DNA from: Marsupella aquatica
Taxonomy: Eukaryota; Plantae; Marchantiophyta
Assembly (NCBI GenBank): GCA_973895155.1
Contig: OZ316894.1
Span: 1,402,953 to 1,466,952, forward strand
DNA length: 64,000 bases
Direction of reading: 5' to 3'
Numbering within the stretch: the first letter of the stretch is position 1; every line of letters begins with the position of its first letter. Under the pieces are notes generated by a model. The model saw only the letters and a program-made list of their open reading frames with translations. It was not told where the DNA came from and made no database searches. The translations under genes were made by a program, and so were the position numbers. Shown here one piece after another: positions 605-25,781 of this stretch.

Positions 605-980
605 GGAGGGATATAAAGAAACACTTGTACGCGCACGCTTTGAGCCTCGGTTCGGTTTGCGATACTCCGTACAAGAATTTCTTAATATCACCTTAAAAAT
701 TTAGTCTCCTTTGTTCATTAAGTAAAACATTTGAGGAGATAGAGGAATCCATGTACGCATGCTTAGAGTTTCGGCTCGGTCTGCGATACTTTGCATGGAT
801 ACCACGATTCGCCGAGAATGTTTTTACTTGAATTACAAATGAGTGTTAAGTTATAGACACCAAATCACATATGTCAAAGCAGGAATATAACAACTTTGAA
901 AGAAAAGAACACTTTTGTGCGCATGCTTTGAGCGTCCGCTCGGTCTGCGATATTTCACAACTGTTGTCTTTCTCTTTTAT
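605..980 (+). other. Three copies of a conserved stem-loop motif inside a putative 5'-UTR intron (GTAAG donor about 520, CAG acceptor 1088) upstream of the kinase
   Basis: Core CGCA-YGCTTW-GAGY-loop-GYTC-GGTY-TGCG-ATAY at about 632, 756 and 920, each enclosed by a different self-complementary outer stem. Confidence 0.7.
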
Positions 981-1179
981 TGTTGTTATATTGAAAGGTA
1001 ATTAAAATCATGTGTGCAATAAAAATACATAATGCATGGGAGAAACAAACCGGGAAAAGATAATAACAATACGACTTGTAATTTTCAGGTTGGTCGTTGA
1101 ATCCTTATTGGAAGGATTTTATTTAAATCCCGGTAAGATCTTGTTCCTCCCTCACATATTCCTTTTGTGAAGGGAAAAC

Positions 1180-2835
1180 ATGGCCATCGAAAATTTTAGT
1201 TTAGAGTATAGGCAAGTGTTGGAGATGATCACAAAACATGTGAATGAGGGATATGAGCCGAATCTTGTTGCTCTGGATGCATTGAAGAACGCTCGAAACA
1301 CTCTCGAACATGCTAGGAATTCTAGCAAAGTGGCCGGGAAACAAAAATGGAAGGGGGCAAACGAAGAGGCAAAACAGGTTCGACACAATGTGGTAGTGTC
1401 GATATGGAAAGAGATACTTTATCGCTACACTCAACCGAAACAGTATGGGGTGGACGGGTTCGAGAGGGAGTTCACAAGACACGGAGAGAAAGGATACAAG
1501 AACTTTCTTGGTGAGATAACCCGTTGTATGCGGGAAAGTGTACAAAAGGAGGACAATTTCACACGAGAGCAAATGAAGTCATTTGAAGATGAAACTGAGA
1601 AACCGGGAGGATTTCTGGAAAATTTGACACTCAACTTGGAGAAGCATGTTTGGGATAATTTGGCAGCCAAAGTGGAAGAGGGTGACACTACATTGCTTGG
1701 AAACCCCGGGATGTACACACACAAGAGAGAATTGCTAGCGAAGTGGAGTAAGGAGTTGGCAATGGCGAAATCTGATAGCAATGTCAAATATGCTAACGAG
1801 ATTGTGCACTTTGGGGATGTCAGCATCAAAAGTGCTCGAAAAGGAACACGTCCATCGCGTGTAGTTCCAGAGGTTAGGAGTATCCATTTTCTTAAACCTG
1901 AGCAGGTGCACAACACACATCGCATTGGGAAAGGAATCCAAGGAGAGGTATACACTTGTCGTATATTACATTGTCCTCTCATTCCCGTCAACGTGACCTT
2001 AGTCGCAAAATGGTTCAAGGATGGAGACAAGCATAAGAGACGAACTGACGCATTACAAGAAGTGCTTATGGGAGGACTGAATCATAAGGGAATAGTTGGA
2101 GCTCTTGCGTTGACTATTGAGGATCCGCCAAAACTTATTTACGATCACTATAATGGAGGTGACTTGGGTAGCTTTATTGATAAGTGCGGCATATCGTCAA
2201 AGAGCAAGGGGAAGGCACAGATCACGACGGACCTTGATTTCAAGTTCATTTCGGAGAAGAAACTCTTGTTGGAGAACCGGTTGGGAATCACCTTGGCTTT
2301 GCTGGAGACACTACAATACTTGCATGAGCATGATCAATTTCATTGTGATCTTCACTTTAGAAACATCCTTCTTCATTTCGATCACGAGCACGATGTGGCT
2401 ATTAAGGTGTATGTTGGTTTATGTGATTTTGGCTTGTCTGAGCATAAATCACAGTGCAAATTACCAGCTAATCGGATGTGGCCCACAGCAACAGAAAAAG
2501 CAGCAGCATACCAAAAACAATTTCCACAGTTGGCTCCGGAGCTTGTTCAACCTACCCCTGTCGAGTTTAGTGAAAGTACCGATATATATGCTTTGGGGAA
2601 TATTTTTGAGACATTGTTGACAGAGAATTGGGATGGAATGTCTAAGGGTTCACGGTTTTTGGGGAGGGGTTGGAGTGCACAAGTGCATGGCCCCAAATTG
2701 GATGTCATAATCCGTGAAATGATGGCCACGGATGCCAAGAAAAGAATGGATTGTGCTTTTTGGAGTTTGAAGATAGTTCGAACGTTTCCAGATTGCACAT
2801 TGCATTTGCACAACAGTCCATATCTTAGAGATTAG
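1180..2835 (+). CDS. Intronless protein kinase (551 aa; about 240-aa helical N-terminus plus kinase domain), transposon cargo
   Basis: IGKGIQGEVY glycine loop, VAK lysine, HCDLHFRNIL catalytic loop, DFG, APE and DIYALG are all present in an open ORF. Confidence 0.9.
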   Translation: MAIENFSLEYRQVLEMITKHVNEGYEPNLVALDALKNARNTLEHARNSSKVAGKQKWKGANEEAKQVRHNVVVSIWKEILYRYTQPKQYGVDGFEREFTRHGEKGYKNFLGEITRCMRESVQKEDNFTREQMKSFEDETEKPGGFLENLTLNLEKHVWDNLAAKVEEGDTTLLGNPGMYTHKRELLAKWSKELAMAKSDSNVKYANEIVHFGDVSIKSARKGTRPSRVVPEVRSIHFLKPEQVHNTHRIGKGIQGEVYTCRILHCPLIPVNVTLVAKWFKDGDKHKRRTDALQEVLMGGLNHKGIVGALALTIEDPPKLIYDHYNGGDLGSFIDKCGISSKSKGKAQITTDLDFKFISEKKLLLENRLGITLALLETLQYLHEHDQFHCDLHFRNILLHFDHEHDVAIKVYVGLCDFGLSEHKSQCKLPANRMWPTATEKAAAYQKQFPQLAPELVQPTPVEFSESTDIYALGNIFETLLTENWDGMSKGSRFLGRGWSAQVHGPKLDVIIREMMATDAKKRMDCAFWSLKIVRTFPDCTLHLHNSPYLRD

Positions 2836-3022
2836 AGATTAGGGTTTACACAATTTTGTAAAGGTCACCTTAACGATTATATGTTTATTCATTGTATGTC
2901 AATTACAATGTTCTGCATTTTGTTGATAATATTCTATCAAACTTTGTCGTGAATGCCCAAAATTGTGCTAAATGTGTTTGTACATTGTCAAATATCGCAA
3001 ACCTTTTGTACACATCGCAAAC

Positions 3023-4981
3023 ATGGGACGATGGGAATTGTCTTCTGATGATGAAGACAAAGAGTTCACGACACAACATCTTACCATGCAAGATGGTCAA
3101 GGATCCTATTGTGACGATGAAGCTCTTCGTAATAATGTGTTGGATAATCTTACAACCATTGGCATTCACTATGAGGCTAAACCCAAGGTTGATGGAACAC
3201 CGGTGCCAAACACAAGAACATGGGAAGATGAGGGTATGAAGGATGAATGGAGTATATTAACGCCCAATGTAAATCCTCCCCATGACGAATGGGCAATGAA
3301 TGCAAAGGAATTGGAGATGTTGATGCCAAAGAAAGACTTTTGGCCATTAGCACAACAAGTTTTTCACGATCCGGATCTTTGGGCAACAAGATCATGGGCG
3401 CAAAAAAAAATCACCATGTCCAAAGTAACACATGCAGGTGTTAAATCACATTGGCAGCAACGATACCGAGAGTTTGCTCCACACAAAGCCCAAATGAAAA
3501 TGAGTTCCGTTTACCCTCCTTTTATCCGATGTCTGATTGCTGAATTCATTCTCAAGTGGAAGGTGGATTACCGTTGGGAAAACAGTGCTGGCAAGCTGAC
3601 TCATCAGGTGCATCCATCAGTGGTTGTGATTGCAACGAATAGGAATACAACTATTGCAAAGGACCCTTCAATGGAGACTTCCAACAAGGGATCCAAAAGA
3701 AAGCTAGATGACACTGGGGAGGGATATGCGCATGAGAAGGGGAAAGCGGCTGTACTTCCTTGAGTCTCCATGCCTGACCGTGTAGCACCACCAACCAATG
3801 TGGAGTCAATGCACACCAAAAAACCAATCCTTATAGGTGTTGGGAGTAGAACTCCACATGCAAAGAACAACAATGTTGCTGATGCTAACAAGGATAAGTT
3901 CAACCTGCACAACATATGCAAGAGCTTGGGGGCAGATGTTGCAGAGGTGATTGAGATAAATCTCCGCACGAAGTATGTAGTGGAGCTGTGTGAATGTGGC
4001 AGTATCGAAAAGTTCAAGTCACAATTGCAACAAGCTGATATAAAGATGAGATCACTTGAGAAGAAGCAGAACGAGCTGACGACCAATTGTGAAGTGATGT
4101 TGTACAAGTGTCAATTGTTTGACAAGATGGAAGAAATCAATAAGCGGATAAAACAACTTGCTGAAAAAGAACGTCAATGCAATGAACTGGCACGACTTGA
4201 GGAGAAGGACAAGATCATTAATGATCTTAAAAGTGAACTTGCAACGCAAGCAATCATCATATCAAATCTTCACGAAGAGGTGCAAGAATTTAACAATGGT
4301 GCTTTGGGGATGAGGTCAAACAAAGGGCAAGGTGAATTATCGTCGCCAAATTTTGTTAACATGCAAATCATAGATCTTACAGGGCACAGCAACCTTTTTC
4401 CAGATGTGGAGGTTGACGCAGAAGGTATTGATAGGTTTTTTGATAAGTGGAAAAAGGATGAAACTATGGCAGCATTTGTTCGTGAAAAGGACGACAAGTG
4501 TACTTGGTGCCTATATCCTTGGGGCCCTGAATCTGTTTCCATGTTGGGAACCTGAGGTCATATATGGCATCATGCTTGCTTGTCTAAATGGTTGAAGAAA
4601 AGCCGAAAATGTTGGTGTCGCACACCATTTCATGAACGCGAGTATGAGCAACGAGGATTGTTGAAGCAAATGCCATCAATGGAGACTCAACAAAATACTA
4701 AAGATATGACTGAAGATATGACTGAAGATACTATACCGGCGATGCAAATAGATGAAACTCCCATTGAACATTTCACAATCAATGAATATAATTTGTCAGA
4801 TGGGGAATTTGACAGGTTGTTATTCAGTGGTCGACTCGATGAGTGGAAACAATATGTGGCAGCCAACCAGCCATCAATAGATGAGCAAAATTTGCAACGA
4901 TCCATTCGGCGCCATCGACGACGTCAACAACAGGCAGAGGTGAAAACAGAAGCTGTTGACAATAACAACAAAAGGAACTAA
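3023..4981 (+). pseudogene. Coiled-coil plus RING-H2-like protein (about 650 aa) interrupted by two in-frame TGA codons (3761-3763, 4553-4555)
   Basis: ORFs 2972-3763, 3770-4555 and 4580-4981 share one frame. Read-through gives CTWC-x12-GT*GHIWHHACL-x8-CWCR, preceded by a heptad-like K/E/L-rich segment. Confidence 0.7.
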
Positions 4982-5497
4982 AACCAATAGTCTCTACATT
5001 TTGATGTTATTTTCATGTAGTTACTATTAGAGACATTTTGTTAAAATAGAAGCGGCATATCCTCTTTGACAATTATTTTCAACTTGTAATTGGTAAAGAG
5101 ATTTTGCGGGAGATTTTGGAGTGACATTACATTGCATATCTCGTTGAGTACATATATTTTTCATTGGGGGCATGGCGTCGCCTTTTGGAGAATGTGTATT
5201 TTTGTAAGAATATTCCATCGTCCAATCAGCCATAGGTTTTGGAAGCATATTGTCGGGCTCACAATCATATTTTTGGACAAGTATGAGGAAAATAGACGTG
5301 ATGAGAGACGGTAGCACAGTGGACTCAGGTACTGATCCTTCTCTGAAATCATTTCCAAAAGGAGATCGTGTAGCACAATGAGTTCAACAAAGTCAACATC
5401 GCAATGGTTTTAGCCGCCCAAGTTGAGAATGATTTTGTAGAAGGATGTATACCTAAGTCCACTCACTTTTCCTGTCTTTCATAATTTTTTCCGCTAT

Positions 5498-6825
5498 TGC
5501 TGCTACGGCCAATGACATTGATGCACATGCGAACCGAGGCCAACGCCTACTCCTTTGCCCACCGCAAAAATGGGCCCTCATTACAACTTGAAGTTGAACG
5601 GAGTTTATTTGAGTACGAGAGAAGTTCTAAAAGCAAATGCACTCTCAGGTCAAATTTTCAGGTCCTTCGAGCAAAAAATTACTGAGTATGTCATCGATCC
5701 GTTGGTTTCACAACTTCTCTCGTACTCAAATAAACTCTGTTCAACTTCAAGTAGCGTAGCTGCTACGGCCAATGACATTCATGCGCATGCAAACCGAGGC
5801 CAACGCCTCTACATTTGCCTACCCCAAAAATGGGCCCTGATTAGAACTTGAAGTTGAACAGAGTTTTTTTCATTGTGAGAAGGTTTATTCAAGCAATGGC
5901 ACTCTCAGGTCAAAATTTCAGGTCCTCCTGACTTTGTTATTATTGAATATGTCCGTGCTCTGTTGCTTGAATAAATCTTCTGATAATGAAATGAACTGAC
6001 CAATTACTGGAGTATGGCTGCTACAGCCTATGACATTAATTCGCACAATTGCATGTTTATATCCTCTCCTTTCCGAATTCCAATTCGAGCTTGGACATCC
6101 TCTCGTCAGCTGGTCTCCACTATTGCAGCTGCTCTTCACGCAAACCGAGATAGCAGTCTCTAGAATCCTTGAACCTATTTTATTTCAATGCATCATTCAT
6201 AGTGTTTGAGGAATCCAGAGGTTCGCGTGAGGAGCAACTGAAAGGGTGGAGACCTGCTGACGAGAGGGTGTCCAAGCTCGAATTGGAATTCGGACAAGAG
6301 AGGATATAAACGGGTGAACTTTGACTTGAAATTGGTGACTGTATTTTGCGTCTGCATATCAATTCGGTGACCGATCTTGCGGAATCCCCGTGACCCTGTC
6401 TGATCATCATCATGACATTGCTCTCCTTGGCCACCAATGGGCCCTCATTACAACTTCAAGTTGAACAGGGTTTATATGATTATGAGAAGGTTATTGATTA
6501 TGTAGGCGATGTGTTCATTTCACAACTTCTCTCATAGTCATATAAACTCTGCCCAACTTCAAGTAGTGCAGCTGCTACGGTCAACGATATTCACCCACCC
6601 CAAAAATGGGCCCTCGTTACAACTTCAAGTTCAACTAAGTTTATTTTATTACGAGAAGGTTTATTCAAGCAATGACATTCTCAGGTCCAATAATGAGGTC
6701 CTCTCGACCTCATTATTATTGAATATGACGGTGCTCGATTGCTGGACTAAATCTTCGCATAGTGAAATGAACTAACCAATTAATGGAGGGGGCTGGTATG
6801 GACTACGGCTGCTATGGCCAACAAC
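5498..6825. repeat. Internal about 260-bp repeat array with three fold-back hairpins (5586-5752, 6055-6311, 6453-6564)
   Basis: GCTGCTACGGCCAATGACATT-like unit starts near 5499, 5759, 6017, 6571 and 6808. Inverted arms read directly. Confidence 0.85.
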
Positions 6826-7060
6826 AAGGTACTTTGAAATAGTCAGTGTTGGAGATTTGGAAAACATGTTGCGTTGGTGTGTCTCTATGACATTCTCAAA
6901 TGCAAATACAAATAAATTATTCAATCATTGTACAATAATAAACACACTGCAAGACAATACAATCATGTTACAAAAAATATAATTGTTTATAATTTTGTCT
7001 ATGTCAGATACGACAATATAAGAGTAGCAACACTTGATATTATTCTAATGAAAAGATGCT

Positions 7061-9967
7061 TCAAGGCTGTGAAGAGAAATTTCGTGCATTGTTGTTACAA
7101 TTTTTGCACAAAAGCGCATTCCACTCGTCTTGTTTATCGCCCCAACTGAGTGGATCACGATTGTGTGACTGAACATTGTGCGACGTTTCTTGAAATGATG
7201 ATATTCCTCGAAACCCACCAAGGCCAATAGGCCTGTTCGACGTATATGGATTCATGACACTTGGCCCTGCATACACATTCAAGGGTGGACCTGCATGGTG
7301 TTGCCAGTTTGCATGTGGGTCGTTTGAAGTTTGACCTTCATGATTGTTGTATCCATGAAAAAAGGTTGATGTCCTTCCATCCGTCGGATGCCCTACTGTG
7401 CCTATGCGTTGCTCGTTGAAATATGGTCTGCTTGTGTCAACATCATTCGCAAAGTTCGACCAAGGTGACCTTGGTTGGGAAGGCATCACAAAGTTTGTGT
7501 CCAGTGATGCATCTTCCTCGTCTTGGATTTGCGATTCATCAATTGTAGGATACATCTCCAAATCCATTTCATTCTCCCATTCCTCTGCATCAGTGATGTC
7601 TGTATCTGGTGGAATACGAGTCAAGAACTCACTATCCTTATCCAGTGAAAATCCGTGTAGCAATTCATCAGCATCATCAATTGTATCATAATCTTCGACA
7701 TCTTCTTCACCAAGAGCCGCACGTGTTGCATCGTACTCTTCATTGCTGCACAACTCCATGGAGATAGGTCTAGGTCCATCATTTGTTCTTCTTCTTTGGT
7801 CATAACGTTCATATATAAACGTATGCGGGTTTTGAACATTTGTGAGCCCTTTCTCTACCCTCATGTTTGTAAATACAAACACCAAATCTTTTGCTCGATC
7901 ATTTGTCAATCGATTGCGACTTTTGGAATGTATAAATCCATACGAACTCCAGTTTTGCTCGCAAGCTGATGCGCACACTTTTTGGTGTAAGATTCTTCGC
8001 GCCAGGATTCTCAAATGTTTATAATCTGCACCATACGCATGCCACCACTCTGCTGGACTGACATTACCTATACTTGATTGGGCGGCTCCCATCGCTATTG
8101 ATGTGTTGGGATTTTTTTTTAGGGCGTCAATGGCTTGACTGTGGATGGCAGAAATAAGTTCTCTGACGTCGCGATCATGGTTGATCCCCTCCTTCACCTG
8201 TTGTTCTGAATATCTAGCAATGTATTTACTGAAACCCCTGTAGAGTTCTGGATCTCCAGCGACATCTATGTCCTCATCAAAAAACATTTGGGGATTGAGA
8301 TATGCTGCCGCTAGCATGAAATCAGTGGTAAGAGATTTTATTCGATCCAAATACACTTTTAGTATCTTTGGTTTCAATACCTCTGTTACCAATGGACAAT
8401 CCTCCATGCTTGCTTTCAAAACATCAATCCCTCTTTTCAAACTCCAATACAACCAACCTGATTGCGGAGAATCACCATCAAATTCTCGCAACATCTTGAC
8501 CAACGGAGTAAAGAATTTAATTGTATCCTTCACTTCAACCCAAAATGTATCTTGCTGTATCCACATTTTAAGTTCGTCTGCCTTTCCCCTCGTCATGTGT
8601 CCAGCTGATTTTGGTCGCAATGGAAGTCTATCACGATAAGACTGCCAATTATCATCAATGACCATCTGTTGTAAAGCTCCTCTTAGCTCCAACGCTCTTT
8701 GTGCCATTAGGAAATTGATCGCAAATCTAGTTGCATTCGGATTCAACAGTTTTTTGTCAGGAGATTTTCTTGCAAATATTGCAGAAAGCTTTTGCGATGA
8801 TGAAACTGCTTTTACTATCCACCTCAACCGTTTAAAAATCTTTTGGAATGGATTCTGTCCAACATCATCTAACACTACACGCTTGTGACCACACATATCC
8901 TCTAGCAGCAAATTAAACACGTGGGCAGCACACCAGCTCCAAGTGACATGAGGATACTTTTTCATGACTACCTCACAACCTGCTACGTGATTTGCGGGTG
9001 CTCCATCGGTTACGATTTGAATAATATGATCTGCACCAATATCCTCAATGTATTTCAACCACATGTCGCCAAGATATTTCCCATCTTTCTTGTCAGCTTG
9101 CGTAGCATTCCAACTATCCAAGAAGCAGTCACCTTTAGAAGTCAACAACATGACATTCATCAAAGGTTCTCTTTGGACGTTTTCCCATCCATCTGAAGAA
9201 AGAGAATACCCATAAGGTTTTGCCTCCTTTAAAGTTTGCGTCATGTCCTTTGTGAGATCCTCCTTACTGTCTTCCAATAATTTCAATCGCAAACTTCGCA
9301 TCGTAGGTAGAGAATAACCATTGACAATCCCTTTTGAAGTCTCTATGATTGCTTCTCGAAAAAAAGGATTATTTGAAACATTGAATGGAATACCACTGGT
9401 GTAGAAAGCTTTCGCCCAAAGCTTATCCAAATTTGTTCTATTTGGAATTTGATAGGCATCCATAATTGGGTTAGGAAGATTTACTGGCCTATCTCCTTCC
9501 CTTACATGTGTATCATCCATGTCAACATAGTTTGACCCTCGTGTGGATGCTTGCGAATATGAACTTCCAACGCTTGGCCTACGACCTCTCACATCCCGCA
9601 AGATATGACTTCCATCCCGTCGTTTGTACTTTAAGGTCGGTGGAACCTTTATCACATTGTACATAATGTTGATGGCATCCAAATCGACGACACCATAGAG
9701 TTGCATGCAAGGGGGCGCATCCCCTTTTTGGATGTTTCCCATCAAATGCGCCTTTGCTCGTGTTGCATGATGAGTAACGTATGTTAAACAATACTTGCAT
9801 CTTCGATAGATACGATTGACATCATGACATGTTGAAGGCGCATCACATCGTTCAAAATATCTCCACACTGGAGATTGTTTTGAAGGGTGTTCTTGCACAC
9901 GAGTTGGACCAGGCCTGGGAGTAGTGGAATGATATCCAGTTTCATGCGAATCCTCTTCATCGGACAT
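7061..9967 (-). CDS. hAT transposase (968 aa from MSDEED): BED zinc finger, DUF659/RNase H-like core, hATC dimerization domain
   Basis: VWRYF..CKYC..AKAHL, SSDGW, QIVTDGA, WCAAHVFNL, NATRF, EWWHAYG, SASACE-like CASACEQNWS and RNRL motifs; uninterrupted ORF. Confidence 0.95.
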   Translation of the reverse strand: MSDEEDSHETGYHSTTPRPGPTRVQEHPSKQSPVWRYFERCDAPSTCHDVNRIYRRCKYCLTYVTHHATRAKAHLMGNIQKGDAPPCMQLYGVVDLDAINIMYNVIKVPPTLKYKRRDGSHILRDVRGRRPSVGSSYSQASTRGSNYVDMDDTHVREGDRPVNLPNPIMDAYQIPNRTNLDKLWAKAFYTSGIPFNVSNNPFFREAIIETSKGIVNGYSLPTMRSLRLKLLEDSKEDLTKDMTQTLKEAKPYGYSLSSDGWENVQREPLMNVMLLTSKGDCFLDSWNATQADKKDGKYLGDMWLKYIEDIGADHIIQIVTDGAPANHVAGCEVVMKKYPHVTWSWCAAHVFNLLLEDMCGHKRVVLDDVGQNPFQKIFKRLRWIVKAVSSSQKLSAIFARKSPDKKLLNPNATRFAINFLMAQRALELRGALQQMVIDDNWQSYRDRLPLRPKSAGHMTRGKADELKMWIQQDTFWVEVKDTIKFFTPLVKMLREFDGDSPQSGWLYWSLKRGIDVLKASMEDCPLVTEVLKPKILKVYLDRIKSLTTDFMLAAAYLNPQMFFDEDIDVAGDPELYRGFSKYIARYSEQQVKEGINHDRDVRELISAIHSQAIDALKKNPNTSIAMGAAQSSIGNVSPAEWWHAYGADYKHLRILARRILHQKVCASACEQNWSSYGFIHSKSRNRLTNDRAKDLVFVFTNMRVEKGLTNVQNPHTFIYERYDQRRRTNDGPRPISMELCSNEEYDATRAALGEEDVEDYDTIDDADELLHGFSLDKDSEFLTRIPPDTDITDAEEWENEMDLEMYPTIDESQIQDEEDASLDTNFVMPSQPRSPWSNFANDVDTSRPYFNEQRIGTVGHPTDGRTSTFFHGYNNHEGQTSNDPHANWQHHAGPPLNVYAGPSVMNPYTSNRPIGLGGFRGISSFQETSHNVQSHNRDPLSWGDKQDEWNALLCKNCNNNARNFSSQP

Positions 9968-10042
9968 TGTTACGACTCTCAATGGTAAAAAAATAAAAGG
10001 GTTGATTCTTTTGATTTTGTGAATATAACAAATATAGTACAA

Positions 10043-10398
10043 TGGGTTACTTTCCTGAATTATCGCAGACTGGGCCTAAGCTCAAAGCATGCGCAGGAAA
10101 GTTTCCCAAATTCTTATATTTGTCAACATCCCTACTTCAACCTATGTTATGTAATATCTATAACTTCACAATAGTTTATCTTTGAAGTGAACATATGTAC
10201 GAGAAATCGTGATACCCATACGAAATATCATAGACCGAGCCAAAGCTCTAAGCATATGCACATGGGTATCTCTTTACTCGCAAGTAGTTCACTTTCAAAC
10301 AAAACAATGATGCAAAGTTGTTAAGGCGATATAAGGAACTTCTCGTACGAATTATCGCAGACCGAGCCGAGCTCAAAGCATGCGCGTACAAGAGTTCC
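10043..10398 (-). other. Three copies of the same stem-loop motif, inverted, upstream of the transposase
   Basis: Plus-strand TATCGCAGAC..GAGC..GCTCAAAGCATGCG-like cores at about 10061, 10226 and 10353, each with a self-complementary flank. Confidence 0.7.
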
Positions 10399-10543
10399 AA
10401 TGTATCCCTCCGATCTCTCCCTAATGCTAAACCACAAGAGAGAGAAACACAATGAGACTTTGGATTAGTGAAATGAATTAGTTATTCCTACTTATACTAA
10501 ATCATCTACTTCTTATCCTCTCTTAAAACTCTTAATCTTCGAT

Positions 10544-11100
10544 CCTAACCCTAATCGCGCCTCCCTTAACCCTAATCTCGCTCCCCTAACCCTAATCCCG
10601 CCCCTAACTCTTCCCCGGCCGCCAGTTCCCGAGCCCCGTCCCCGAACCCCGCACCCCGTTCCCCGAACCCCGCACCCCGTTCCCCGAACCCCGTTCCCCG
10701 CATCCCCGAACCCCCTACCCGAACCCCCTTCCCCGAACCCCCTACCTCGTTCCCCGAACCCCGTTCCCCGAATCCCCGAATCCCGGCCCCCCTTTCCCGC
10801 CCCCCCTTCCCCGGTTCCCCGAATGCCCCCCGTCCCCGGTTCCCCGAATCCCGTCCCCCGGGCCCCCTTTACCCCGGCCGGCCCCGGAAGGGTCCGGGCA
10901 GGGTTCGGGTGGGGGTCCGGGGAGGGTCCAGGAAAGGCCCGAGAGTCCGGGGAGTGTTCGGGGGAGGGTCCGGGGAGGGTCCGGGAAGGGCCCGGGAGTC
11001 CGGGTTCGGGTCAGGGGGAGTTCGGGTTCAGGTCCGGGGTGCTCGGGAGGAGTTCGCGAAAGGTCCGGGGAAGTCGGGGTTCGTTCGGGAGAATCTTCAG
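10544..11100. repeat. Right subterminal region: AACCCTAA telo-box-like motifs, C-rich CCCCGAACC repeats, then G-rich repeats
   Basis: Visible; mirror image of the left end, with a C-rich to G-rich switch at about 10880. Confidence 0.85.
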
Positions 11101-14095
11101 GAATATCCGTCAAATTGCGTGTTTTCGGGCCGTCATTTGACGATTTGACGTGCCCGACAAGGCGTCAAGGTGCCCGTCAGATTAAACCGGGTGAACATGG
11201 GAGCATTTAGAACAGGTATTGGGGGTACTAGTGGTATGAAATAAATGTATTTTTGCCATTGAAACCGAGCATCACGAGGGTTAGAGAGGGTCCTGAGGCT
11301 GCACAGTAGCTGAGTAGGGAGAAAGCAGATTGGTTCAGTGCTCTTGTGACCCACTGAAAAGCTTAGCTGTAATACTGTAAAGATACTTCCCTCTTATCTC
11401 GGTAGTGACTCCCATAGCTTTACTGTTCTACTGTTGTATCCAAAATACTCCACTGTACACAGTTCTCTCGATTTGTTTCTCCAATCTGAGCATGATTGAT
11501 CGATGGGTTCTGTGCAATTTCATCCGTGCATGTGTCGGACTGTATTTCCCATTACTTGTCAGAAGACATCGACTGCATCCGTTGCTTAGGATTTGCGCAC
11601 TGTTGCTGGGAAGACTGATGCTCCACATAGCACTTATCTCGTAGAGCATGGTACAAAATCACTGAGCCGCCCATGCACCGGTCACCAATAATTGAGCCGC
11701 CGTGTCCACGAGTCCATGTAAGCGCTCCTCCACATTGTAGGTGGAGCAGTGGAACGAATTTGGTCGTGCCTCTTCACCTCTGATTCTGGTAGTTTGAGAT
11801 TCTGGAAGCCTGCTAATTCAGCTGACATGATAACATATTAACGAATTCTCCTTGAACGCATAATTCATCTGTATTGGGTCCTCCATGAATTTGAGCCTAA
11901 GTACACTTAAAAGCTTGAGTGGATTTGCCCTCCATCCTGTTAGAACTGTTAGAGAACCTCAAATCCCCTTCAAAGCGCAATTACTTTGACGAGCTGACTT
12001 TCCTGGTGGACAGGAGAATCCACTCTTGCAGATAGCACCTCAAGCGACTGTACGTCACTACCATCATGAAAAATGTGAGGCCGATATTGGCTTTTTGTGT
12101 CCAATAATTGGCCCTGCCCACTCTCCTTCTCCCCTTCATGAAGAAACGGGGGGAAACTTATTTTTATAACAATGGAAACGAATGAAATGTCATAGAGTCC
12201 CCAAAAGGACAAAAAATACAGCGCAGACACCGAAATGACGAACAGGTAGCCACGTCGCCCGGACCGAGTCAGCATATCTAAATTGAAAAGCAGAACTGCA
12301 GAAGTCACATTCCGGAATGAAAATTAAAAGTTACGTTAGACCTTGATGACAGGAATGTCAGTCAAGCAACAAAAACTGCAACTAATAATATTATAATGTC
12401 GCCGAGACCAAAATGGAGTGCACAGCTGCACATGCGTCACAATACCTGAAAATCAGAACCTCGATCTGTGTAAGCATAGCTTGTGCCTACGGTATAAAAT
12501 TGCTGGCAAGATGAGAGTACCATCTGATTTGTTCATCGAGGAGCTGTAGAGCTCCATTGCATTAAAAGCATTTACTACTCAGAGTAGCTGGCTCAACCAG
12601 GCACTGTTCGATGTTCAGGGTTCCCAGGTCATTCCGTCATTGACATAGTCTAAGCAGGCTGGCGACAGTCCGCACCAGCATCAAAGGCCCTCCTACTTGA
12701 TTCCATCATGAGCGGACGGATCAAATGAAATAATACTGATTATAATTCCACTTAATGCATCGAACGGGTTAAAGGAACAACAATAACTCTTTATAGAGCA
12801 GACGGAACAAGAAGGCCCACGACTCGAGGGACCCGCCAAAACCAGTGCCACCTGAAAGAGCGCCCTACCACACAACTTTGACAACACATGGTGCACCTAC
12901 CCAGCACCGCCAGAAGAAACAGCTAATAGAGGATCCCGGGAGACGTCCACAAAGGTCCAAAGAATCGACTCATCGAGCTATTCCAACAAATATGGCATTT
13001 GATTTAACTGCATGATTAGAGCCAACCACAGGCTCTGTATGGAAAGTGTCGAGCTCATGCCATCAATATGACAACCGATTTCACTTATTAGAGCCATCCG
13101 TCATTCCGTAGGCTCTCTAGGGAAAAGTTAGCCTAGTACGAGTCTAGACTTCACCCGGCGGGCACGCCAATCAGTCAGCAAATGCAATTATACAACAGCT
13201 GTGAAAAAGGCGTCGCTTCATTTCCTCGATGGTGCTACATTGCTTGAATTCGCAGCTGCCCTCCTCCAAAGGTGAAGGGTGGGTTGCCTGGGCACGGCCC
13301 GGCTGCTCGATGTCAATCTCCCCCGTCCACGGAAACTTACTCCAAATCGTACCTGAGCTCAGCTGAATGGGCCGCCACCTTCGTGGACAATTATGCACGA
13401 GGCACTCAGTGCGTGTAAAGTATCCTCTCATTCTTCACTGAGTGACCACCACCATACCCTCGACGCTAAGTCATCCAGGGTAGTTTTGAAGGGTTTTCGC
13501 CAAGGTGGCTAATGTCACCCTTATTCGGAACGAGAAGATGCTAAGAATCTTCCTCGCGTAATTCTTGGGTGCTGTTAGATCTCCCAGAATGTTAGGGTAA
13601 CCGTCAGATTCAAGCTAATGGGTTTTGTGGTTAGGTTGTAAACTGGCTAATTTTCGACAAAAGTGGTTCAGAAGACTTTTCAGCGAGGTGAAATTTGGCC
13701 AATTTTCCCCTTAAAAAGAACACTTCTCACTCGTTTTTGCCAGCCCAGCCTACAAGTCGATCGGCCAGCTAGGCTAACAAGTAGACAAGAGGGCATAGAT
13801 TGACTGCAATCTTCTTCAGCGTCAAGTGTCAGAAGGTTTTCAATTTGCACAGGCTTTAGAAGATTGCCGCCCACGCAGTGAGTGGAGACAGCTGAAATTG
13901 TCTTCAGTATTGCTATTGCACCCAAGGTAGTAGCAGCTGAATCTGAATCCGTTCTACGTACAGCTCGTGTGCTTGGTTGACAGGTTAGGGCAGTGACAAC
14001 TTCACGTCTCCCAAATCTTCGAGCTTGAGGTGGACAGGACATAACAACAAGTGCTTCTCTTCTATTCGTGAATCCGGAGGTGATCGCATTTTACA

Positions 14096-18169: not shown

Positions 18170-18520
18170 TCCTCGAACATGCTTGGTTTTTGGTCTTGTA
18201 GTGAGCTGTAAGTGGAAAAAAATAAGAGAATAGAACTAGAATAGATATTATTAAGTGTGAGTGGGATAAAATAATATAAGTAGAGCACATGCAAAGAAAA
18301 GCACAAAAAGGGGATATAACAAGAGCACATGTAAAGAAAAGCACAGAAAGGGGATATAACAGGCTCATCCTCGAACATCTTCTAGTGAGCTCATCCTCAA
18401 ACATGTTGTCTTGTAGTGAGCTGTACGTGGAAAAAATAAGAGAGTAGAACTAGAATAGATATTATTAAATACAAATGAGATAAAAGAATATAAGTAGAGC
18501 ACATGCAAAGAAAAGTACAT
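18170..18520. repeat. Direct duplication with about 220-bp offset, within old AT-rich repeat DNA
   Basis: GTCTTGTAGTGAGCTGTA...AAGTAGAGCACATGCAAAGAAAAG occurs twice. Confidence 0.7.
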
Positions 18521-20021
18521 AGTGAACAATGAAAAGTACAGTCAATTTTTATGACAAGTTCTATTACACAAAGCTACTAGGATCTGTGCACTTATTAATT
18601 CAATGTGCCTTATTAATGACACTCAATTCAATAAAAAAACCACACTCTTAGGTTTGAAAGCCATGAGGGGAACTTAATACACTATGTGTTCATGTTATTT
18701 AGAATCATTTCTCTCACTCATGATAAACTTAAAACTTTGTTCAAGTGGTAGAATTTAAAGACATTGATTTCACACACATAAAATCTAAGAGATAGCAAAG
18801 TTAAAAAACTAAAAGGGTTGCCAAAATAAGTTCAAATACTCTACGATACCAAAAATTAATTAAAAATCTATCTGATACAAAGTAGAGTTGTAAAAAGATC
18901 AACATTTTCTCTAAATTACCTGATTGAAACTAAGGCATTTAAAAAATTAAGGGGGTTAGAAGAAATTACTAGATTTGAAATAATACAAAACAAATGCCTA
19001 GACTAGGTCAAATGCATATAAAAATACATGACAAGGAACATGAATAAGACAAGACAACCAATAGGTGTTCCCCCATATAGCAGCCTCAAACTCGACTGGA
19101 AAGGTGGATTCACCATATATAGCACCTTTAAAACTAATCACAATCAGTTGAACCCACGATCCCTCAGTCTCCACTCAAGTGAGCTACCACATAGGCATGT
19201 CTCTCTGGGCTTGACACACCAAAATAATATCCCAAACAAGGTTTGTGGTTAAAATGGGTTAAAGGATGCGGGGGCTTCCTCTGGGTCTTGCTTACCAAAT
19301 CCTGGTCTCTTGTAGTATGTTTACTGTTCTGATAGAAATCCGTACTCCAAGAGAAGGATAAAGGGCAAAGCATGTTAGTGGGTGTGTTACTGCAGAGAAG
19401 TGTAAATTTTAGGGGGCGTAATCTTGGGCGTTACCTTAGTGTGTTCTTCAATATCCTGAAATAATTTTTTAAAAAAATTTAGAAAGAAAACATTCTATAA
19501 ATATTCAAAATTTGAGTTATATGACCTATTTAATTTTCTTTTTGTTAAGAAATACCAGTGAATCTACTCTTGTGTTGTATCTACTTTATATTACTTACTA
19601 CACTGAATAAAGTTTTTGGTATTAAAGATATCCGTAAAGTGCATCCTGACTTTCGTCCAAGAATTAGGCTAACTCAGGCTTAGACCTGCTAATTTTTCAT
19701 TAGTTGTAAAGTAGGTCCTGCTTTGTAAAGCTTGATGAGTTACTGTAAATCAACCTGAGTTAATTCTGGCACACGATAGATCCATCATGCTTGTACTCAG
19801 CAGCTCTGCCTTGGCCTCGACATCGCACAACAATGTGCAGCTCTACCCTTGGCCTGGACATCGCAACAACAGCAGCCTCTGCCCTTGGCCTGGACATCGC
19901 AACAAATTGATCAGCGCCAAATTGATATGCGCCCTCGCCACTACGTGCGTCCTCCAGTCCTTCATCTACTCTTTGACGATGGCCACAAGAAGCCGGTGAG
20001 CTCTCCGTTTTTTCTTCAACT

Positions 20022-21268
20022 ATGGATCTCCGAGCAGTGCGCCTACCAATGGAGATGCAGATGCCAGGGAGAATTGATATGCAACAAGTCCTTCCTCCAT
20101 TTGCGCACGACGACGAGAATGAAGATTTCTGGAGAGGAGAGAATGATTGCCAAGATGATGGAGATACCTTGATGCTGTTGTTGCTTGCAATGGCTATGCA
20201 GGCTTATCTCATAATGCTCGAAACATTCCAGCCAATTGAGCTTGCTCGGGAGAATCAAGTGACTGTGAACCCAAGAAGGCCAGTAGATGACCTGCTCTCT
20301 AAACACTCTCAAACTCCACAATTGTTCAAGGACCTCACAAATTTCACTCTCGAAGAATTTGCAGAGCTTTGTGCAATCGTTTGTCCCACCATAGAACAGA
20401 ATGCTAGGTCTACTGGATTATCTCATAAACTAAAAGGTCACCCTAGCAAATTGACTCTAGAACAGAGATTGCTTAGCTACGTCTTTTACATGAAGCATGA
20501 CAACACAATTTATTTTGATGCTGCTCATTGGAATTGGGCAAGATCATCAGTATGTGATGATGCCATTTTTGTAGCTTCTTGTGTAAATCAAGCCTTGGCC
20601 AATGAGATCCGATGGCCTACTGCCGATGAGAGATTGGAGTTGGGGAATGTCATCACCAACTTTCCTGGATGCATAGGATTTGTTGATGGCACCTTATGCA
20701 AAATTTGCAGGCCCTTTGACGACCCCTATCACAATAAATGGTATCAGGGGCGGAAAAAGATGTATTGCTTTAATTCCACAGTGCTAGTAGATCATAATGG
20801 ACTTTTTATCTATGTTGACCCTAGCTATCCTGGTAGTTTCCATGATGTCACAATTCTGAAGGATTCTTGGGTGGACAAGAATTGGAGAACCCTGTTTGCA
20901 AATCAGGATGACTACTATGAGTATTTGCTTGGCGATCAGGGATACACCAGATGAAGAATTATGTCATGAGAGGTTTCAGGAAGGTGGAAATCCGAGCTAT
21001 GGAATTGGACGAAAGCCTAGTGAAGATCTTCAACAAGATGCACTCAGGATACAGAGTCAAGGTGGAGTGGGGAATTGGTGGTATGAAACAGAAATGGAGG
21101 CGGTTGCAGAAAAGATTTGATCTTGTGAGACCTAAGTTTGCCATCACATTTAGGGCAGCTGCATTGCTCACCAATTTCCTGCATAGGCGAAGGAGGAACA
21201 TGCGAGTAGAAATAATTGGTCCTAGGGTCAGAAGAGAAGAGAACAGGGGATGGGCTGGCGACTTTTGA
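20022..21268 (+). pseudogene. Harbinger (HARBI1-like) DDE transposase with a frameshift at about 20950
   Basis: FPGCIGFVDGT, YPGSFHD and LLGDQGY in one frame; RVKVEWGIGGMKQKWRRL in the next frame. Confidence 0.88.
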
Positions 21269-21796
21269 AAACCATGGAAGTCCATGAGAGAGCTCTTGGG
21301 CTCAACATTTTATGTACAGCCTGCACTGTCATATGCACAGTTCAGATAAGATTGATGATGTTATCAAATTGAAAGCATGTATGTAAAGTTGTGTCTGTTT
21401 TTAGGGGATATATGCATGACTCTTCATGAATAAAATTATCAGTTGCCTTTCAAATGGTTGAGTATTGATTTTTTGCAAATATGTGGATTCATTGCTCTAG
21501 TTCCAAAAACTACAGTCAAAAAATTTGCCTTTATGATGAAATTGAAGACCTTGGAAGACATGACAACACACGGAAGCTCAAATGCATAGATGTGTTTTAT
21601 ATTCACTCATGAATCATTTGTATTACATGCAATAAAATTGCTCACAAAATGCAGTTTACTTCATCAAAATTGGCCAAGTACATAGACCTTGACATAGAGT
21701 ACAAAATTGGTCGAACAACTGATGTTTGAAGTGAACTACTGATATTGGCAGAAGTGGTCAAGTACATGATCACTCTTGCCACCTCAAAAACTATAA

Positions 21797-22260
21797 CTAC
21801 AAGAGTCCAAAAGCAGCTTTGCATTTTTCCTTGAACTCGTCCTCAGTGATCAGCTCCAATGCTCGCTGCTCCTTGAGTAATGTAATGTCTGCCAACACAT
21901 TTTGCTTGGCTTGAAATGCACTTCTCTCTTCTGATTCTCCAAGCTGCAGATTCGGCTTGATGAGCCAATGACTCCTGTTGCTTTGTTTTCTCATCAAGGC
22001 CCTTCTCAGAAGTAATACTTTTGAACATCCCCATCATCTCATCAAGGTTCTCTCCTGCTCACTTCAGGCTGTCCTTCTTGGTGGGAGGCTTCTTTATTGT
22101 GTCATCACCTAGATTTGTGGATGGGGTGACTGGTCGGGGTGGTGCCACAGATCCAGAACACTTTGGATTACTCATTGCATGGCTGTTTGTGCCAGCCATA
22201 GCCCCTTCCTTAATTTCAAAATGTTCCTGGCCTTCCAGGAGGGGGTGTCCTTTAGCTTAA
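21797..22260 (-). pseudogene. 3' remnant of Harbinger ORF2, frameshifted, ending in a short helical SHOCT-like tail
   Basis: Convergent position inside the TIRs; C-terminus LLKEQRALELITEDEFKEKCKAAFGLL*. Confidence 0.5.
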
Positions 22261-22263
22261 ACA

Positions 22264-24400
22264 TCAGATTTGCATCTTGCAGAGTTTTTCAAATACAAAG
22301 ACATTGATAGCTTCTACCACATTCCCAAGTTTGATCATGATCTCAGGACATGCTCCCCACAAGGGATTTGCCCTTGTGCCCACTGAATTGACATTCCATT
22401 TGATGTCACAGTCAATCTTCCAATGCCCTTTTTGGTATGTCTCTTTAGACATTAGATTCAACTAAGATCCTAAGTCTAGGAGTGCCCGAATTCCTCCTTC
22501 AGCACCAAGCAATTGCACCTCAATCTCCGGGCAAGCTCTTGCCCAATACGGTCGGATTGTTTCCCGCAAATCCACCTCATGTAGGGCTACATTGCTATGA
22601 ATACCTGAAGTTGTTTCATGGTGACTCATGGTAGCACATAATACATTTCCCTCCAAATCTTCTTCTTCTTCTTCATCTTCTAGATCATCTTCATAGTCAT
22701 AGCTAAGAATCTTGGCAGTTAGTGCATGAGGTCCCTCCTTGTAAACCCTTTTTCTTCTTGCCCTATCCAAGATCTTGCCTTGTAAGTCTAAACGAAGACT
22801 TCCAAAAAGTTCTCCATTAGTGAACCCCCTAGCCTCTTGCTGCCAGAATTTCTCGGCAATCACCTCTGGATCAACGGTTTGCTCCACCTCTCTAGTAAGC
22901 AAATAGCCTGGGCTCTTCTTAGCACCTTTCTTTGGGGTGTAGGTATCCATTGAGCTTCCATGGGAGATTTCTTCTTGACTCTTGCTTGTGGATGCTTCAG
23001 GCTCCTCAAATCGAACTCCTTTCTCTTTGGCTTGACGTGTGAAGCGAGGTCCTGCTTTGGGTCTCTGTTGTTTTTCTCTCCTTTGGGTTTCTTCCATAGA
23101 AGTGCCTTCATACCTCCTCTTCTCTTCCACAGCGACATTCCATGCTGCTCCTACTTCCGCAGTGATAGAGTTGATCAACACAGGCACATCTTAACCAGAT
23201 TTTCTCCGGATACTTTCCGCAAGTCTTTTCCTCTCAATAATATCAAGATGTTCTATGGAAGGCAGATCCTTCTTAACTTGAAGACTGAAGACAAAAGGAT
23301 CACCATACATTGTCGCAGCACTAGAAACTTTCTCTCTCATCCTTTGTTCTACAATCTGCTTCATTCCTCCTCGGTTCACATTCATTGGTATTGGCTCTCC
23401 AAAATCAACAAATGCAATCTTCCATTCCACAAACTTGACATGTCGAAATCGCAATGCTTCTGTCAGTTCTCCACAATCCCTTCTATGATGCTCCTTGCTA
23501 TCACACCACAAAGAATTTGAGTTTTTATTCAAGGCTGCTAGTGATGTTCCACCAGGGTTTTTGTTCTCCAAGGCTTGAATTGAAAGAGCAAGCTTTGCTA
23601 TCATGTCTGTCAATGATGCTATGTCGCCCCCTTTTGTGATGCTGCTTTTGACTTCTTTTTCTCCTCCATCAGTAGTGCTTTCTTCTCTGACTTTTCTCAA
23701 GTCTAGAATGGGAGCTTCCGCCTCTTGATCGACCTCCCTTCTCCTCCTTTGGTTTGTCACCGGTCCTTGTGGATTGCAGCTTCTGCTTGTTCCCAAGTGA
23801 CTTCATCCGCATCTGGAGCAATAACATCTAGAGCATTGTCCAACTCTACCCTCAAAGGTATGTCAGCTTCAAAAGACCCCCTCTTCTGAGACTGATTATT
23901 GTTAGATCCTTTGAAGATAGCTGATGGTAGCGCCTATTGAATTCCCTCAATAATTCTTGAGGTCCCAACTTCTTGTTTTTCTCTTGTACCCAACCAAGGA
24001 ACGTGGCTGTAGTAACTCAATCTGGATCTTCAAATGTTTTCCAATCCTCTTTGGCTCCTTCAACAATCTTGGTGATGATGTCTTTCAATTCTGATTTCAC
24101 CAATGATGCAAATTCGTGAATGGCAACCTTCTCACTGATCTTGTGGATGGCTACCTCTATCCAATACTCTTTCAACTACCGGGTTGCTCTTCTCCCGTCT
24201 AACTGCCCAAACTTTGCTAACAAAGCTTGTATATAAGCACTTGGTCATACGACTTGCTTCCTCCTTCTTCTGGTTCTCAGGTGCCTCTCTTCGTGCTTTG
24301 GCCTCCATCAAACTCATAAACATCTCAGTCATCTCCTCCATAGTTTCTCCTACCATTGTGTACAATTTCTCCTTTGCTTCTATTTTCTATCAAGCTTCTT
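22264..24400 (-). pseudogene. Ty3/gypsy gag and aspartic protease remnant (RT, integrase and 3' LTR missing)
   Basis: Zinc-knuckle remnant LWCDSKEHHRRDC; protease IRALLDLGS*LNLMS..LWGACP; multiple stops and frameshifts. Confidence 0.8.
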
Positions 24401-24462
24401 CTCTCATAAATATCTTTTATCTTTGACACTAGCCTCAAGTTTCCCCAGTATGGTCGCCAACA

Positions 24463-25781
24463 TGTCTGGGGGGGAAAAATGCGGTTCTTGAGGAAGCACC
24501 GGGCCTATGGCTGCTAGTGTCAAGAGAGAACTTAAGTTAAGATCATAATTACTATTCTAGACTGGGTAGCAGACACCACAAGGAATGGTTATGTGGATGA
24601 AAGCAAAACATCATAACCTTTTTCTCCATACCTAAGGACTATTGCCTCCTTGGTAGCTACCTTGGGTCGAGTTACAAAATAAATATCTCCCAACGAGAAA
24701 GAAACGGAGGTTCATCGGAGGGAGGTTTGTTGAGATCTATCTCAATACAAGATAAAAATTGTGCAAGCCCAATTCTGCCCATAAACTACATAAGGATATA
24801 CAATGGCTTTATTGAATTTAACACCGCAGTTGCAAATGCTTCTCCAAAGTGAAAAGTCATATGCTGACGCATTATCTCTTTTTGGAATACATGAATTCTA
24901 ATAAGGAAAGGATTAGAGAGAGGAACAACAGGTACTGGTCTGGGCATTATTGTACTATCAAATATCCCATCCAACTAATATTCATTCTAATGATAAGATA
25001 TAGAATCATTCAACGAAAAGATCATTCATTTCAAACAAATACTATGCATTGAGTTAACTCTAAGTATATACATGCAGATGTTTATCTTAATAAGTTTATC
25101 TTCTTTTGAATGAAAACACCAGCTGAAGGTCCAACCCATACAAATTACCACTGACTGAGCTAAGCTCCAAGCCAGCGTGTATGCGTGGGTCTACTTCATA
25201 AGGGTTTCATCCAAAAGGAGCATATGATATTAAGGTATTGTTGAGCACTTTGCAACTCTTTAGGACTTAATAACCATCTCCTATAAAATGATAACACTTT
25301 TTGAAGGTCCAACTCATACAAAATATCTCTGGCCGAGCCGAAGCTCTAAGCAAGCGTGTATGAGTGGGTCTACTTCATAAGGGTTATATTCATAGAAGAA
25401 GTCATCAAGTCCAATGGATTCTTAAGGCTTCACAACTTAGTTGATGAAAGATGGGGAGTGAGGGGAGAGAGCCCCTCTCCTCTTTATTTATAGTGCTCAC
25501 ACGTCAAGCACACGGATCAAGCATGGCACACGGATGGAAGCCATGTGTCACATATCCAAGGCAAGTAAGTGTGCTAGTACTGTAGTTACGTGAGTAGAGC
25601 AACTGTAGCCAGTACACTGTAGCATGCACACTGTAGATCGTACACTGTAGCATGCACACTGTAGGTCGTGCACTGTAGCATGCATACTATAGACTGCATA
25701 TAATGCGAGAATTCAAACTACTATCCTATACTACTAAGCTATACTTAGGAGGAACTTACTAAACAAAGAATCCCCACGACA
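24463..25781 (-). mobile_element. 5' LTR (about 1.32 kb) of the gypsy element, with adjacent PBS at about 24443-24459
   Basis: Minus strand begins TGTCGTGGGG and ends CCCCCAGACA, followed by TGGCGACCATACTGGGG. TATAAATA at about 25485-25492. Internal CACTGTAG microrepeats at 25600-25700. Confidence 0.75.

What the first reader, a model, noticed from the sequence alone, without database searches (positions are those of the whole stretch)
605..25380. Covarying RNA stem-loop motif shared by both hAT leaders (6 copies) and an unrelated gypsy LTR (2 copies)
Seen: eight copies, at + 605-694, 747-800, 897-980 and at - 10043-10107, 10199-10280, 10334-10398, 25126-25197, 25303-25377. All are in sense orientation upstream of the TE ORFs. 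Shared fold: variable outer stem, P2 (CGCA/UGCG), GCU plus 2-nt bulge, GAGC-loop-GCUC (UUCG in some copies), RGUC, P2', 6-nt bulge (AUAAUU/AUAUUU/AUACUY), outer stem. Outer stems differ in sequence but still pair (CUUGUACG/CGUACAAG, AUCCAUGUA/UGCAUGGAU, ACUUUCCUG/CAGGAAAGU, GAUACCCAUGUG/CGUAUGGGUAUC, ACUCAUACA/UGUAUGAGU). P2 changes on both strands (CAUA/UAUG, CGCU/AGUG), and G-U wobbles favour the sense strand. Inference: a structured RNA element that I do not recognise, used by both class I and class II TEs. It could be a protein-binding site for splicing, export, elongation or escape from silencing.
Basis: partly seen in the sequence, partly recalled or inferred. Interest (0 to 1): 0.88.

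Follow-up and report, generated by a model that had tools for sequence, protein, structure and literature searches.

The report
TAR-like hairpin shared across transposon classes
A conserved bulged hairpin lies in the predicted transcript leaders of both arms of one DNA transposon and of an unrelated retrotransposon, probably in a liverwort, and likely docks an arginine-rich protein encoded by the DNA transposon to boost expression, much as HIV Tat docks on TAR RNA.

Summary
All eight copies fold alike on the sense strand. 14 of 22 pairs change on both sides (0/500 shuffles), and four copy-pair contrasts give 6 compensatory pairs against 0.9-1.5 expected. There is no Rfam match.

Correction: the two "hAT leaders" are the two arms of ONE 11.1-kb hAT element (66-11191, 8-bp target-site duplication). 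The arms are homologous and face each other. One drives the transposase; the other drives a protein kinase and a RING-finger protein (two stops in this copy).

The RING protein ends in an arginine-rich helix, RSIRRHRRRQ, kept in 4 of 4 full-length family members. The hairpin carries a TAR-type bulge (U, then G-C, A-U). It is not TAR itself: the loop varies, and the pair under the bulge and the position differ.

Best reading (about 0.4): an RNA docking site for this element-encoded protein, which would raise transcript output, with the LTR element carrying the same site to exploit it. Binding, expression and effect are untested. A host-protein site is the main rival. A homolog of the RING protein comes from the liverwort Calypogeia.

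The parts
58..65 (.). Left 8-bp target-site duplication of the hAT element
   Evidence: identical to 11192-11199 and the only 8-bp direct repeat between the end zones that abuts an 8-bp perfect inverted repeat
66..11191 (.). One hAT element with two convergent transcription units; short terminal inverted repeats (8 bp perfect, 10 of first 12) with collinear subterminal TTTGAC/GTCAAA words
160..440 (+). Left G-rich GGTTCGGG array with telomere-like TTAGGG boxes; inferred promoter region
   Evidence: function inferred
521..1088 (+). Predicted leader intron (GAG|GTAAGT ... TTTTCAG|G) holding hairpins 1-3 and 11 upstream ATGs
   Evidence: sequence only, no RNA data
623..676 (+). Hairpin copy 1 (stem extends to about 605-694)
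747..800 (+). Hairpin copy 2
911..964 (+). Hairpin copy 3 (stem extends to about 897-980)
1180..2835 (+). Cargo protein kinase, open ORF, 551 aa
   Evidence: Pfam PK_Tyr_Ser-Thr 4e-17; 8 homologs at 47-72%
3023..4981 (+). Cargo protein: unknown N-domain, coiled coil, RING-H2, conserved C-terminal helical domain ending in RSIRRHRRRQ; two in-frame TGA stops in this copy
5499..6788 (.). Central block of direct repeats and hairpins between the convergent 3' ends
7061..9967 (-). hAT transposase, open ORF (DUF659 + hAT dimerisation domain)
10049..10102 (-). Hairpin copy 6 (counterpart of copy 3)
10214..10267 (-). Hairpin copy 5 (counterpart of copy 2)
10341..10393 (-). Hairpin copy 4 (counterpart of copy 1)
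10545..10790 (-). Right G-rich GGTTCGGG array with TTAGGG boxes; inferred promoter region
22280..24403 (-). Broken gag/protease-like region of the LTR element (CCHC-like knuckle, protease-like LLDLGS); no reverse transcriptase seen
   Evidence: read by eye; Pfam not significant
24441..24464 (-). LTR 3' end (..CA) followed by a primer-binding-site-like TGGCGACC word
   Evidence: family assignment recalled
25134..25186 (-). Hairpin copy 8 (LTR)
25312..25365 (-). Hairpin copy 7 (LTR), 120-130 nt downstream of the TATA box
25486..25492 (-). LTR TATA box (TATAAAT)

Best explanation
The repeat is a conserved bulged hairpin, predicted to fold in the nascent leader RNA, that likely serves as a docking site for the arginine-rich C-terminal helix of the RING protein encoded by the same hAT element, and would thereby raise output of transposon transcripts in a Tat/TAR- or Rev/RRE-like way. 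Shown here: the fold and its compensatory change; one hAT element with both arms carrying three copies; the kinase and RING cargo; and the conserved arginine-rich tail. Inferred: that the hairpin forms in RNA; that the bulge U makes a U.A-U triple beside a G-C pair that binds arginine; that the RING protein is the partner; and that the tethered ligase, perhaps with the kinase, favours elongation, processing or escape from silencing. The LTR element likely acquired the module and duplicated it to draw on the same protein in trans.
For: Structure under selection: (6 double changes vs 0.87 or 1.53 expected, P 5e-5 and 1e-3). Core sequence held more than spacers between arms: 85% vs 64%, P=1e-4, while P1 sequence is not significantly held (76%, P=0.11). 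Fixed bases inside paired regions plus fixed bulge sizes are what a protein-read groove would give (inference). Sense fold beats antisense in 7 of 8 trimmed copies and in the consensus, -24.9 vs -20.15 kcal/mol. Of 27 common variants from other runs that fall in the motif, 12 are at unpaired sites, 9 keep a pair, 4 restore one, 1 breaks one and 1 leaves a mismatch. Bulge U in 8/8, G-C in 8/8 and A-U in 7/8 match the U23, G26 and A27-U38 geometry described in PMC6189040. The tail R[SA]IRxHRRRQ is kept in 4 of 4 full-length members at 40-57% overall identity. Its 60-residue block is about 50% invariant vs 23% overall and is predicted helical at pLDDT 72-80. Kinase and transposase families show no comparable tail.
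Against: No binding or expression data exist, and the link between protein and RNA is co-occurrence in one element. Arginine-rich tails have other uses: calnexin in this window has 5 R in 10, and the tail may be a nuclear localisation signal. The TAR likeness is a post-hoc match of a few bases. The pair under the bulge is U.G/U-A, not A-U; the loop is variable; and the site is about 90-500 nt past the inferred start rather than at it. HEXIM and cyclin T are reported as mainly holozoan innovations (bioRxiv 2023.02.19.529146), which argues against literal 7SK/P-TEFb mimicry. In LTR copy 7, one P2 pair looks unpaired in most relatives of two runs (partner change 83% and 77% vs restoring change 21% and 15%). 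Antisense folds lower in 2 of 8 copies with flanks. With a 90% transition null, the count of changed pairs kept is not above chance (P=0.44). The RING gene is broken in this copy while the hairpins are intact. The variant tables mix in paralogous hairpins, so they are not fully independent.
Confidence: 0.4

Rival explanations
1. The hairpin is a site for a host RNA-binding protein (export, splicing or elongation factor) that both elements exploit, and the cargo's basic tail is only a nuclear localisation signal.
For: Sharing across classes is simply explained by a host partner. Hairpins stay intact where the RING gene is broken. Left copies sit in a predicted intron. Run X5 shows depth about 4000 on the copy-2 core vs 16-51 beside it, while its LTR depth peaks at 198, hinting at a further carrier family (depth is no copy number).
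Against: No host RNA with this fold is in Rfam. No copy occurs near the host genes or the Harbinger element in this window. The tail sits in a conserved folded block longer than a simple localisation signal.
Confidence: 0.27
2. The element-encoded protein binds the hairpins but represses or re-routes the transcript (splice choice between kinase and RING frames, retention, or decay) as a feedback control.
For: Kinase and RING genes follow one leader, and the hairpins lie between a canonical donor and acceptor. Both leaders hold many upstream ATGs.
Against: No canonical donor was found in the right leader or ahead of the LTR hairpins. A high-copy LTR family would gain little by keeping a repressive site (inference).
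Confidence: 0.13
3. The structure is a DNA-level or neutral product: a quasi-palindrome captured once, with arms homogenised by template switching.
For: Watson-Crick double changes are equally valid on both strands (16 of 22 antisense pairs). Template switching makes apparent compensation (established knowledge). Orientation rests on only two independent lineages. No RNA run was available.
Against: Template switching would erase bulges, yet the 2-nt and 6-nt bulges are kept in 8 of 8. Invariant G.U pairs become A.C on the other strand and P3 collapses there. Core sequence is held above spacers.
Confidence: 0.1
4. It is a small self-cleaving ribozyme or a small-RNA precursor.
For: Retroelements often carry small ribozymes (recalled); some stems extend to about 30 bp.
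Against: No Rfam ribozyme hit, no hammerhead core word, and no conserved pairing partner for the 6-nt bulge. Conservation is in the bulged core while the long stem changes freely, unlike a microRNA duplex. Cleavage in a leader would decap the mRNA (inference).
Confidence: 0.05

Closest known systems
HIV TAR with Tat; 7SK arginine-sandwich motifs (PMC6189040; passages and section 9 read)
   Same: 5' pyrimidine bulge starting with U, followed by G-C, A-U, G-C in a short upper stem; location in the 5' part of a mobile element's transcript; a candidate partner with a zinc-binding domain and an arginine-rich stretch encoded by the element.
   Different: U.G/U-A rather than A-U under the bulge; variable 3-4 nt loop, no conserved hexaloop; extra P2/P3 and 6-nt bulge; 2-3 tandem copies well past the start site; partner tail predicted helical and joined to a RING; plant DNA transposon.
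Rev/RRE and lambda N/boxB (recalled)
   Same: Helical arginine-rich motif; several sites per transcript; left copies in a predicted intron.
   Different: No purine-rich internal loop or GNRA-like loop; no sequence relation tested.
VANC anti-silencing proteins of VANDAL/Mutator elements (PMC5735166; abstract read)
   Same: Extra element-encoded protein with repeated cis targets in non-coding parts of the element.
   Different: VANC targets are DNA motifs that differ between families; here the target covaries as RNA and is shared across classes; hAT, not Mutator.
Maize MuDR layout (recalled)
   Same: Two convergent genes driven from homologous terminal arms, with repeats between them.
   Different: hAT transposase, 8-bp duplication, kinase and RING cargo.

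Membership tests
hAT DNA transposon | 8-bp target-site duplication | tested here: met
   58-65 = 11192-11199; feature stated in PMC8616336 passage
hAT DNA transposon | Short terminal inverted repeats | tested here: met
   8 bp perfect, 10 of 12
hAT DNA transposon | Transposase with hAT dimerisation domain | tested here: met
   PF05699 1e-9, PF04937 4e-30
TAR / arginine-sandwich motif | Bulge U able to form a triple with an A-U pair two steps up, G-C between | tested here: met
   secondary-structure level only: U 8/8, G-C 8/8, A-U 7/8 vs PMC6189040
TAR / arginine-sandwich motif | A-U pair (A22-U40) as base of the sandwich | tested here: not met
   U.G in 6, U-A in 2
TAR / arginine-sandwich motif | Conserved apical hexaloop | tested here: not met
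   loops are 3-4 nt and variable
TAR / arginine-sandwich motif | Position at the very 5' end of the transcript | tested here: inconclusive
   start sites only inferred; LTR copy begins about 90 nt past the likely start
TAR / arginine-sandwich motif | Arginine-dependent protein binding and transactivation | not testable with these tools
   needs EMSA, NMR, reporter
Any Rfam 15 family | Covariance-model match | tested here: not met
   3 chance hits at E 0.2-0.5, none on a copy of the hairpin
Hammerhead / pseudoknotted ribozymes | Catalytic core words or conserved pseudoknot | tested here: not met
   cleavage itself untested
Ty3/gypsy LTR retrotransposon (Tat/Ogre-like) | LTR ending CA followed by primer-binding site; gag knuckle then protease | tested here: inconclusive
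   seen by eye; Pfam not significant
Ty3/gypsy LTR retrotransposon (Tat/Ogre-like) | RT-RNaseH-integrase order, second LTR | tested here: inconclusive
   no RT ORF and no second LTR in the window; element appears truncated
MITE | Own terminal repeats and duplication, random orientation | tested here: not met
   outer stems differ between copies, fixed order in homologous leaders, all sense

The most novel reading that the evidence does not exclude
A plant DNA transposon has evolved its own Tat/TAR-like system: a RING ubiquitin ligase with an arginine-rich helix (helped by a cargo kinase) is tethered to nascent transposon RNA through tandem bulged hairpins to defeat silencing, and unrelated retrotransposons have captured the hairpin to parasitise that protein, making it a cross-class RNA password for transposon activation in liverwort genomes.
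Probability: 0.3. Interest if true: 0.93.

Novelty: new variant of a known kind. Interest (0 to 1): 0.8.

Why it matters
RNA hairpin plus arginine-rich protein switches are known from animal retroviruses and phages (partly recalled). The plant transposon anti-silencing system compared here, VANC, reads DNA motifs specific to one family. An RNA-addressed system in a DNA transposon, shared with a retrotransposon, would show cross-class exploitation of a trans-activator. It would also give a compact, testable protein-RNA pair that might serve as a tethering tool in plants. Even if the partner is a host protein, the motif is a new structured RNA family that points to a nuclear step which unrelated elements need to control. 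A hAT carrying a kinase and a RING gene on a convergent arm is itself unusual. Six literature searches aimed at the motif or the element listed nothing that describes them. The library lacks most subscription papers and no supplements were read, so a prior description cannot be excluded.

Tried and rejected
No whole genome is held, so no genome-wide census was possible.

Pattern scans: 0 in viral contigs. There were 4 hits in metagenome contigs, all in bacterial-looking DNA (two are the same sequence; L001 and L004 checked and inside ORFs), taken as chance; L001 scored E 3e-5 on the model only because it was selected for the core pattern.

Related-locus scans for the transposase and kinase gave no loci. 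So no independent full-length leader sequences were obtained, and no R-scape-scale alignment could be built.

Sequencing runs: no RNA holder listed, which is no evidence on expression.

Fold searches of the RING protein model (mean pLDDT 50) gave nothing clear in PDB or viral libraries, only generic coiled coils; single domains were not folded apart.

Earlier findings: none returned. No tRNA genes. The bacterial promoter scan was uninformative.

Rejected by inspection: two separate hAT elements (refuted by the shared duplication), hammerhead, pseudoknot via the 6-nt bulge, H/ACA snoRNA, K-turn, microRNA, MITE.
Full report
OBSERVATION. The eight copies are present as reported. Each folds, on the stated strand, into a free-sequence outer stem P1, a 4-bp P2, a 1x1 position, a 3-bp P3 (G.U, C-G, U.R), a U-N bulge, a 4-bp P4 (GAGC/GCUC) with a 3-4 nt loop, and a 6-nt bulge on the 3' side. 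Mean predicted probability of the consensus pairs is 0.78-0.95, and single-copy z-scores are only -1.3 to -3.95. The core pattern occurs 6 times exactly against 0.00 in 100 shuffles. A covariance model finds no further copy in the window. Rfam has no match on any copy.

IS THE STRUCTURE SELECTED? On the 8-row alignment, 14 of 22 pairs change on both sides and 94.9% of cells pair; 0 of 500 shuffles reach either, and slid controls pair 27-42%. The copies are related, so I compared only counterpart pairs (c1/c4, c2/c5, c3/c6, c7/c8). Of 19 changed pairs, 6 changed on both sides and still pair, 7 changed on one side and still pair, and 6 are unpaired in one copy. The null gives 0.87 double changes (P 5e-5), or 1.53 with 90% transitions (P 1e-3). 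The total of changed pairs kept is significant only under the first null (P 0.005 vs 0.44). Between the two hAT arms the core is 85% identical, P1 76% and spacers 64% (core vs spacer P 1e-4; P1 vs spacer P 0.11).

STRAND. Sense folds lower than antisense in 7 of 8 trimmed copies, 6 of 8 with flanks, and in the consensus (-24.9 vs -20.15), where P3 collapses on the other strand. G.U:A.C is 20:1, or 7:1 without P3 (P 0.07).

OTHER GENOMES. Contigs of five coded runs from three coded organisms were laid on the left leader and on the LTR pair. Both regions attract many divergent contigs at high depth, as repeats do. The tool listed 80 of 210 variant rows, and 27 of the 80 fall inside the motif: 12 at unpaired sites, 9 keep a pair, 4 restore one, 1 breaks one and 1 leaves a mismatch. 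These tables mix paralogous hairpins, so they are supportive, not independent. Against strict pairing, the second P2 pair of LTR copy 7 appears unpaired in most depth of two runs. In run X5, depth on the copy-2 core is about 4000 against 16-51 beside it, while the LTR region peaks at 198. This is a hint of a third carrier family, since depth is no copy number. No independent full leader could be fetched.

WHAT THE CARRIERS ARE. The two 'hAT leaders' belong to one element. Positions 58-65 and 11192-11199 are an identical 8-bp duplication, directly abutting an 8-bp perfect inverted repeat, and this is the only such case between the end zones. The leaders align at 72% over 359 nt with the three hairpins in register, so they are diverged terminal arms. 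The right arm leads to an open hAT transposase. The left arm leads, after a predicted intron 521-1088 that holds the three hairpins, to an open protein kinase and then to a frame of about 650 codons with two TGA stops. That protein has a coiled coil and a RING-H2 finger. One of its 4 search hits is named from the liverwort Calypogeia fissa, which points to a liverwort-like host (inference). One kinase homolog and one RING homolog each come from a contig of 5391 bases, suggesting but not proving the same linkage elsewhere. The second carrier has a TATA box at 25492, the hairpins 120-360 nt downstream, an LTR-like end with a primer-binding-site-like word, and broken gag/protease-like frames. Pfam gives nothing significant and no reverse transcriptase is in the window, so 'gypsy, Tat/Ogre-like' is likely but recalled. 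Only 41-43 nt of core align between LTR and hAT.

MECHANISM. Fixed bases within stems, fixed bulge sizes, a free loop and a free outer stem point to a groove read by a protein (inference). The upper part matches the geometry of the TAR arginine sandwich, where bulge U23 pairs in a triple with A27-U38 and arginines contact G26 and G28 (PMC6189040, passages and section 9): U 8/8, G-C 8/8, A-U 7/8. I then looked for an arginine-rich protein in the element. The RING protein ends in RSIRRHRRRQ, kept as R[SA]IRxHRRRQ in all 4 full-length members aligned (window, P0028, P0030, P0034; 40-57% identity). Of the other hits and members, P0027 departs and P0026, P0029, P0031 and P0033 end or diverge before it, while a fragment, P0032, has it. 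The last 60 conserved residues are about 50% invariant against 23% overall, and the model makes them a helical domain at pLDDT 72-80 in an otherwise weak model. Kinase and transposase reach at most 3-5 R in 10, not conserved, but host calnexin has 5 in 10, so such tails are not specific. I commit to: hairpin = docking site on nascent RNA, RING-tail protein = reader, result = higher output, LTR = free-rider (0.4). That the hairpin is a functional protein-binding RNA of some kind I put near 0.8. Literal 7SK/P-TEFb mimicry is disfavoured because HEXIM and cyclin T are reported as mainly holozoan (bioRxiv 2023.02.19.529146, passages). That liverwort transposons are marked by H3K27me3 I saw only in search listings.

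COMPARISON AND NOVELTY. It works like TAR/RRE/boxB if the reading holds, but fails TAR membership (loop, pair under the bulge). It parallels VANC anti-silencing (PMC5735166, abstract) but with an RNA target shared across classes. The two-arm layout recalls MuDR (recalled). Searches returned no paper; others listed unrelated ones. No earlier scan finding was returned.

VERDICT. A real, selected, undescribed RNA motif in two transposon classes, with a plausible element-encoded reader; function untested. Interest 0.8.

Noticed in passing
window 66-11191: hAT element with intact duplication, open transposase and open kinase ORF; a kinase + RING cargo family with several divergent homologs and no name in the databases searched.
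   Followed up: partly
window 5499-6788: About 260-nt direct repeats, each with internal hairpins, plus a 92-bp-arm inverted repeat at 6055-6311, between the convergent genes; possible DNA target array or terminator region.
   Followed up: partly
window 160-360, 585, 2839, 10419-10790: GGTTCGGG arrays and TTAGGG telomere-like boxes in both arms and right after the kinase stop.
   Followed up: no
window 744-799 (run X5): Depth spike confined to the copy-2 core, far above flanks and above the LTR region: possible third high-copy carrier.
   Followed up: no
window 25602-25693: 14-nt tandem array upstream of the LTR TATA box.
   Followed up: no
window 19977-20954: PIF/Harbinger-type transposase ORF (DDE_Tnp_4); no hairpin copy nearby.
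   Followed up: partly
window 15274-16038: Xyloglucan endotransglycosylase fragment (Pfam XET_C, GH16).
   Followed up: no
window 27377-30855: Calnexin-like gene in one long ORF, preceded by about 80-nt tandem repeats.
   Followed up: no
window 46692-47608: Nested inverted repeats (150-nt arms, 98%), foldback/MITE-like.
   Followed up: no
window 43089-44282, 45762-46220, 62026-62253: Further tandem or direct repeat arrays (152, 154, 35 and 28-nt units).
   Followed up: no
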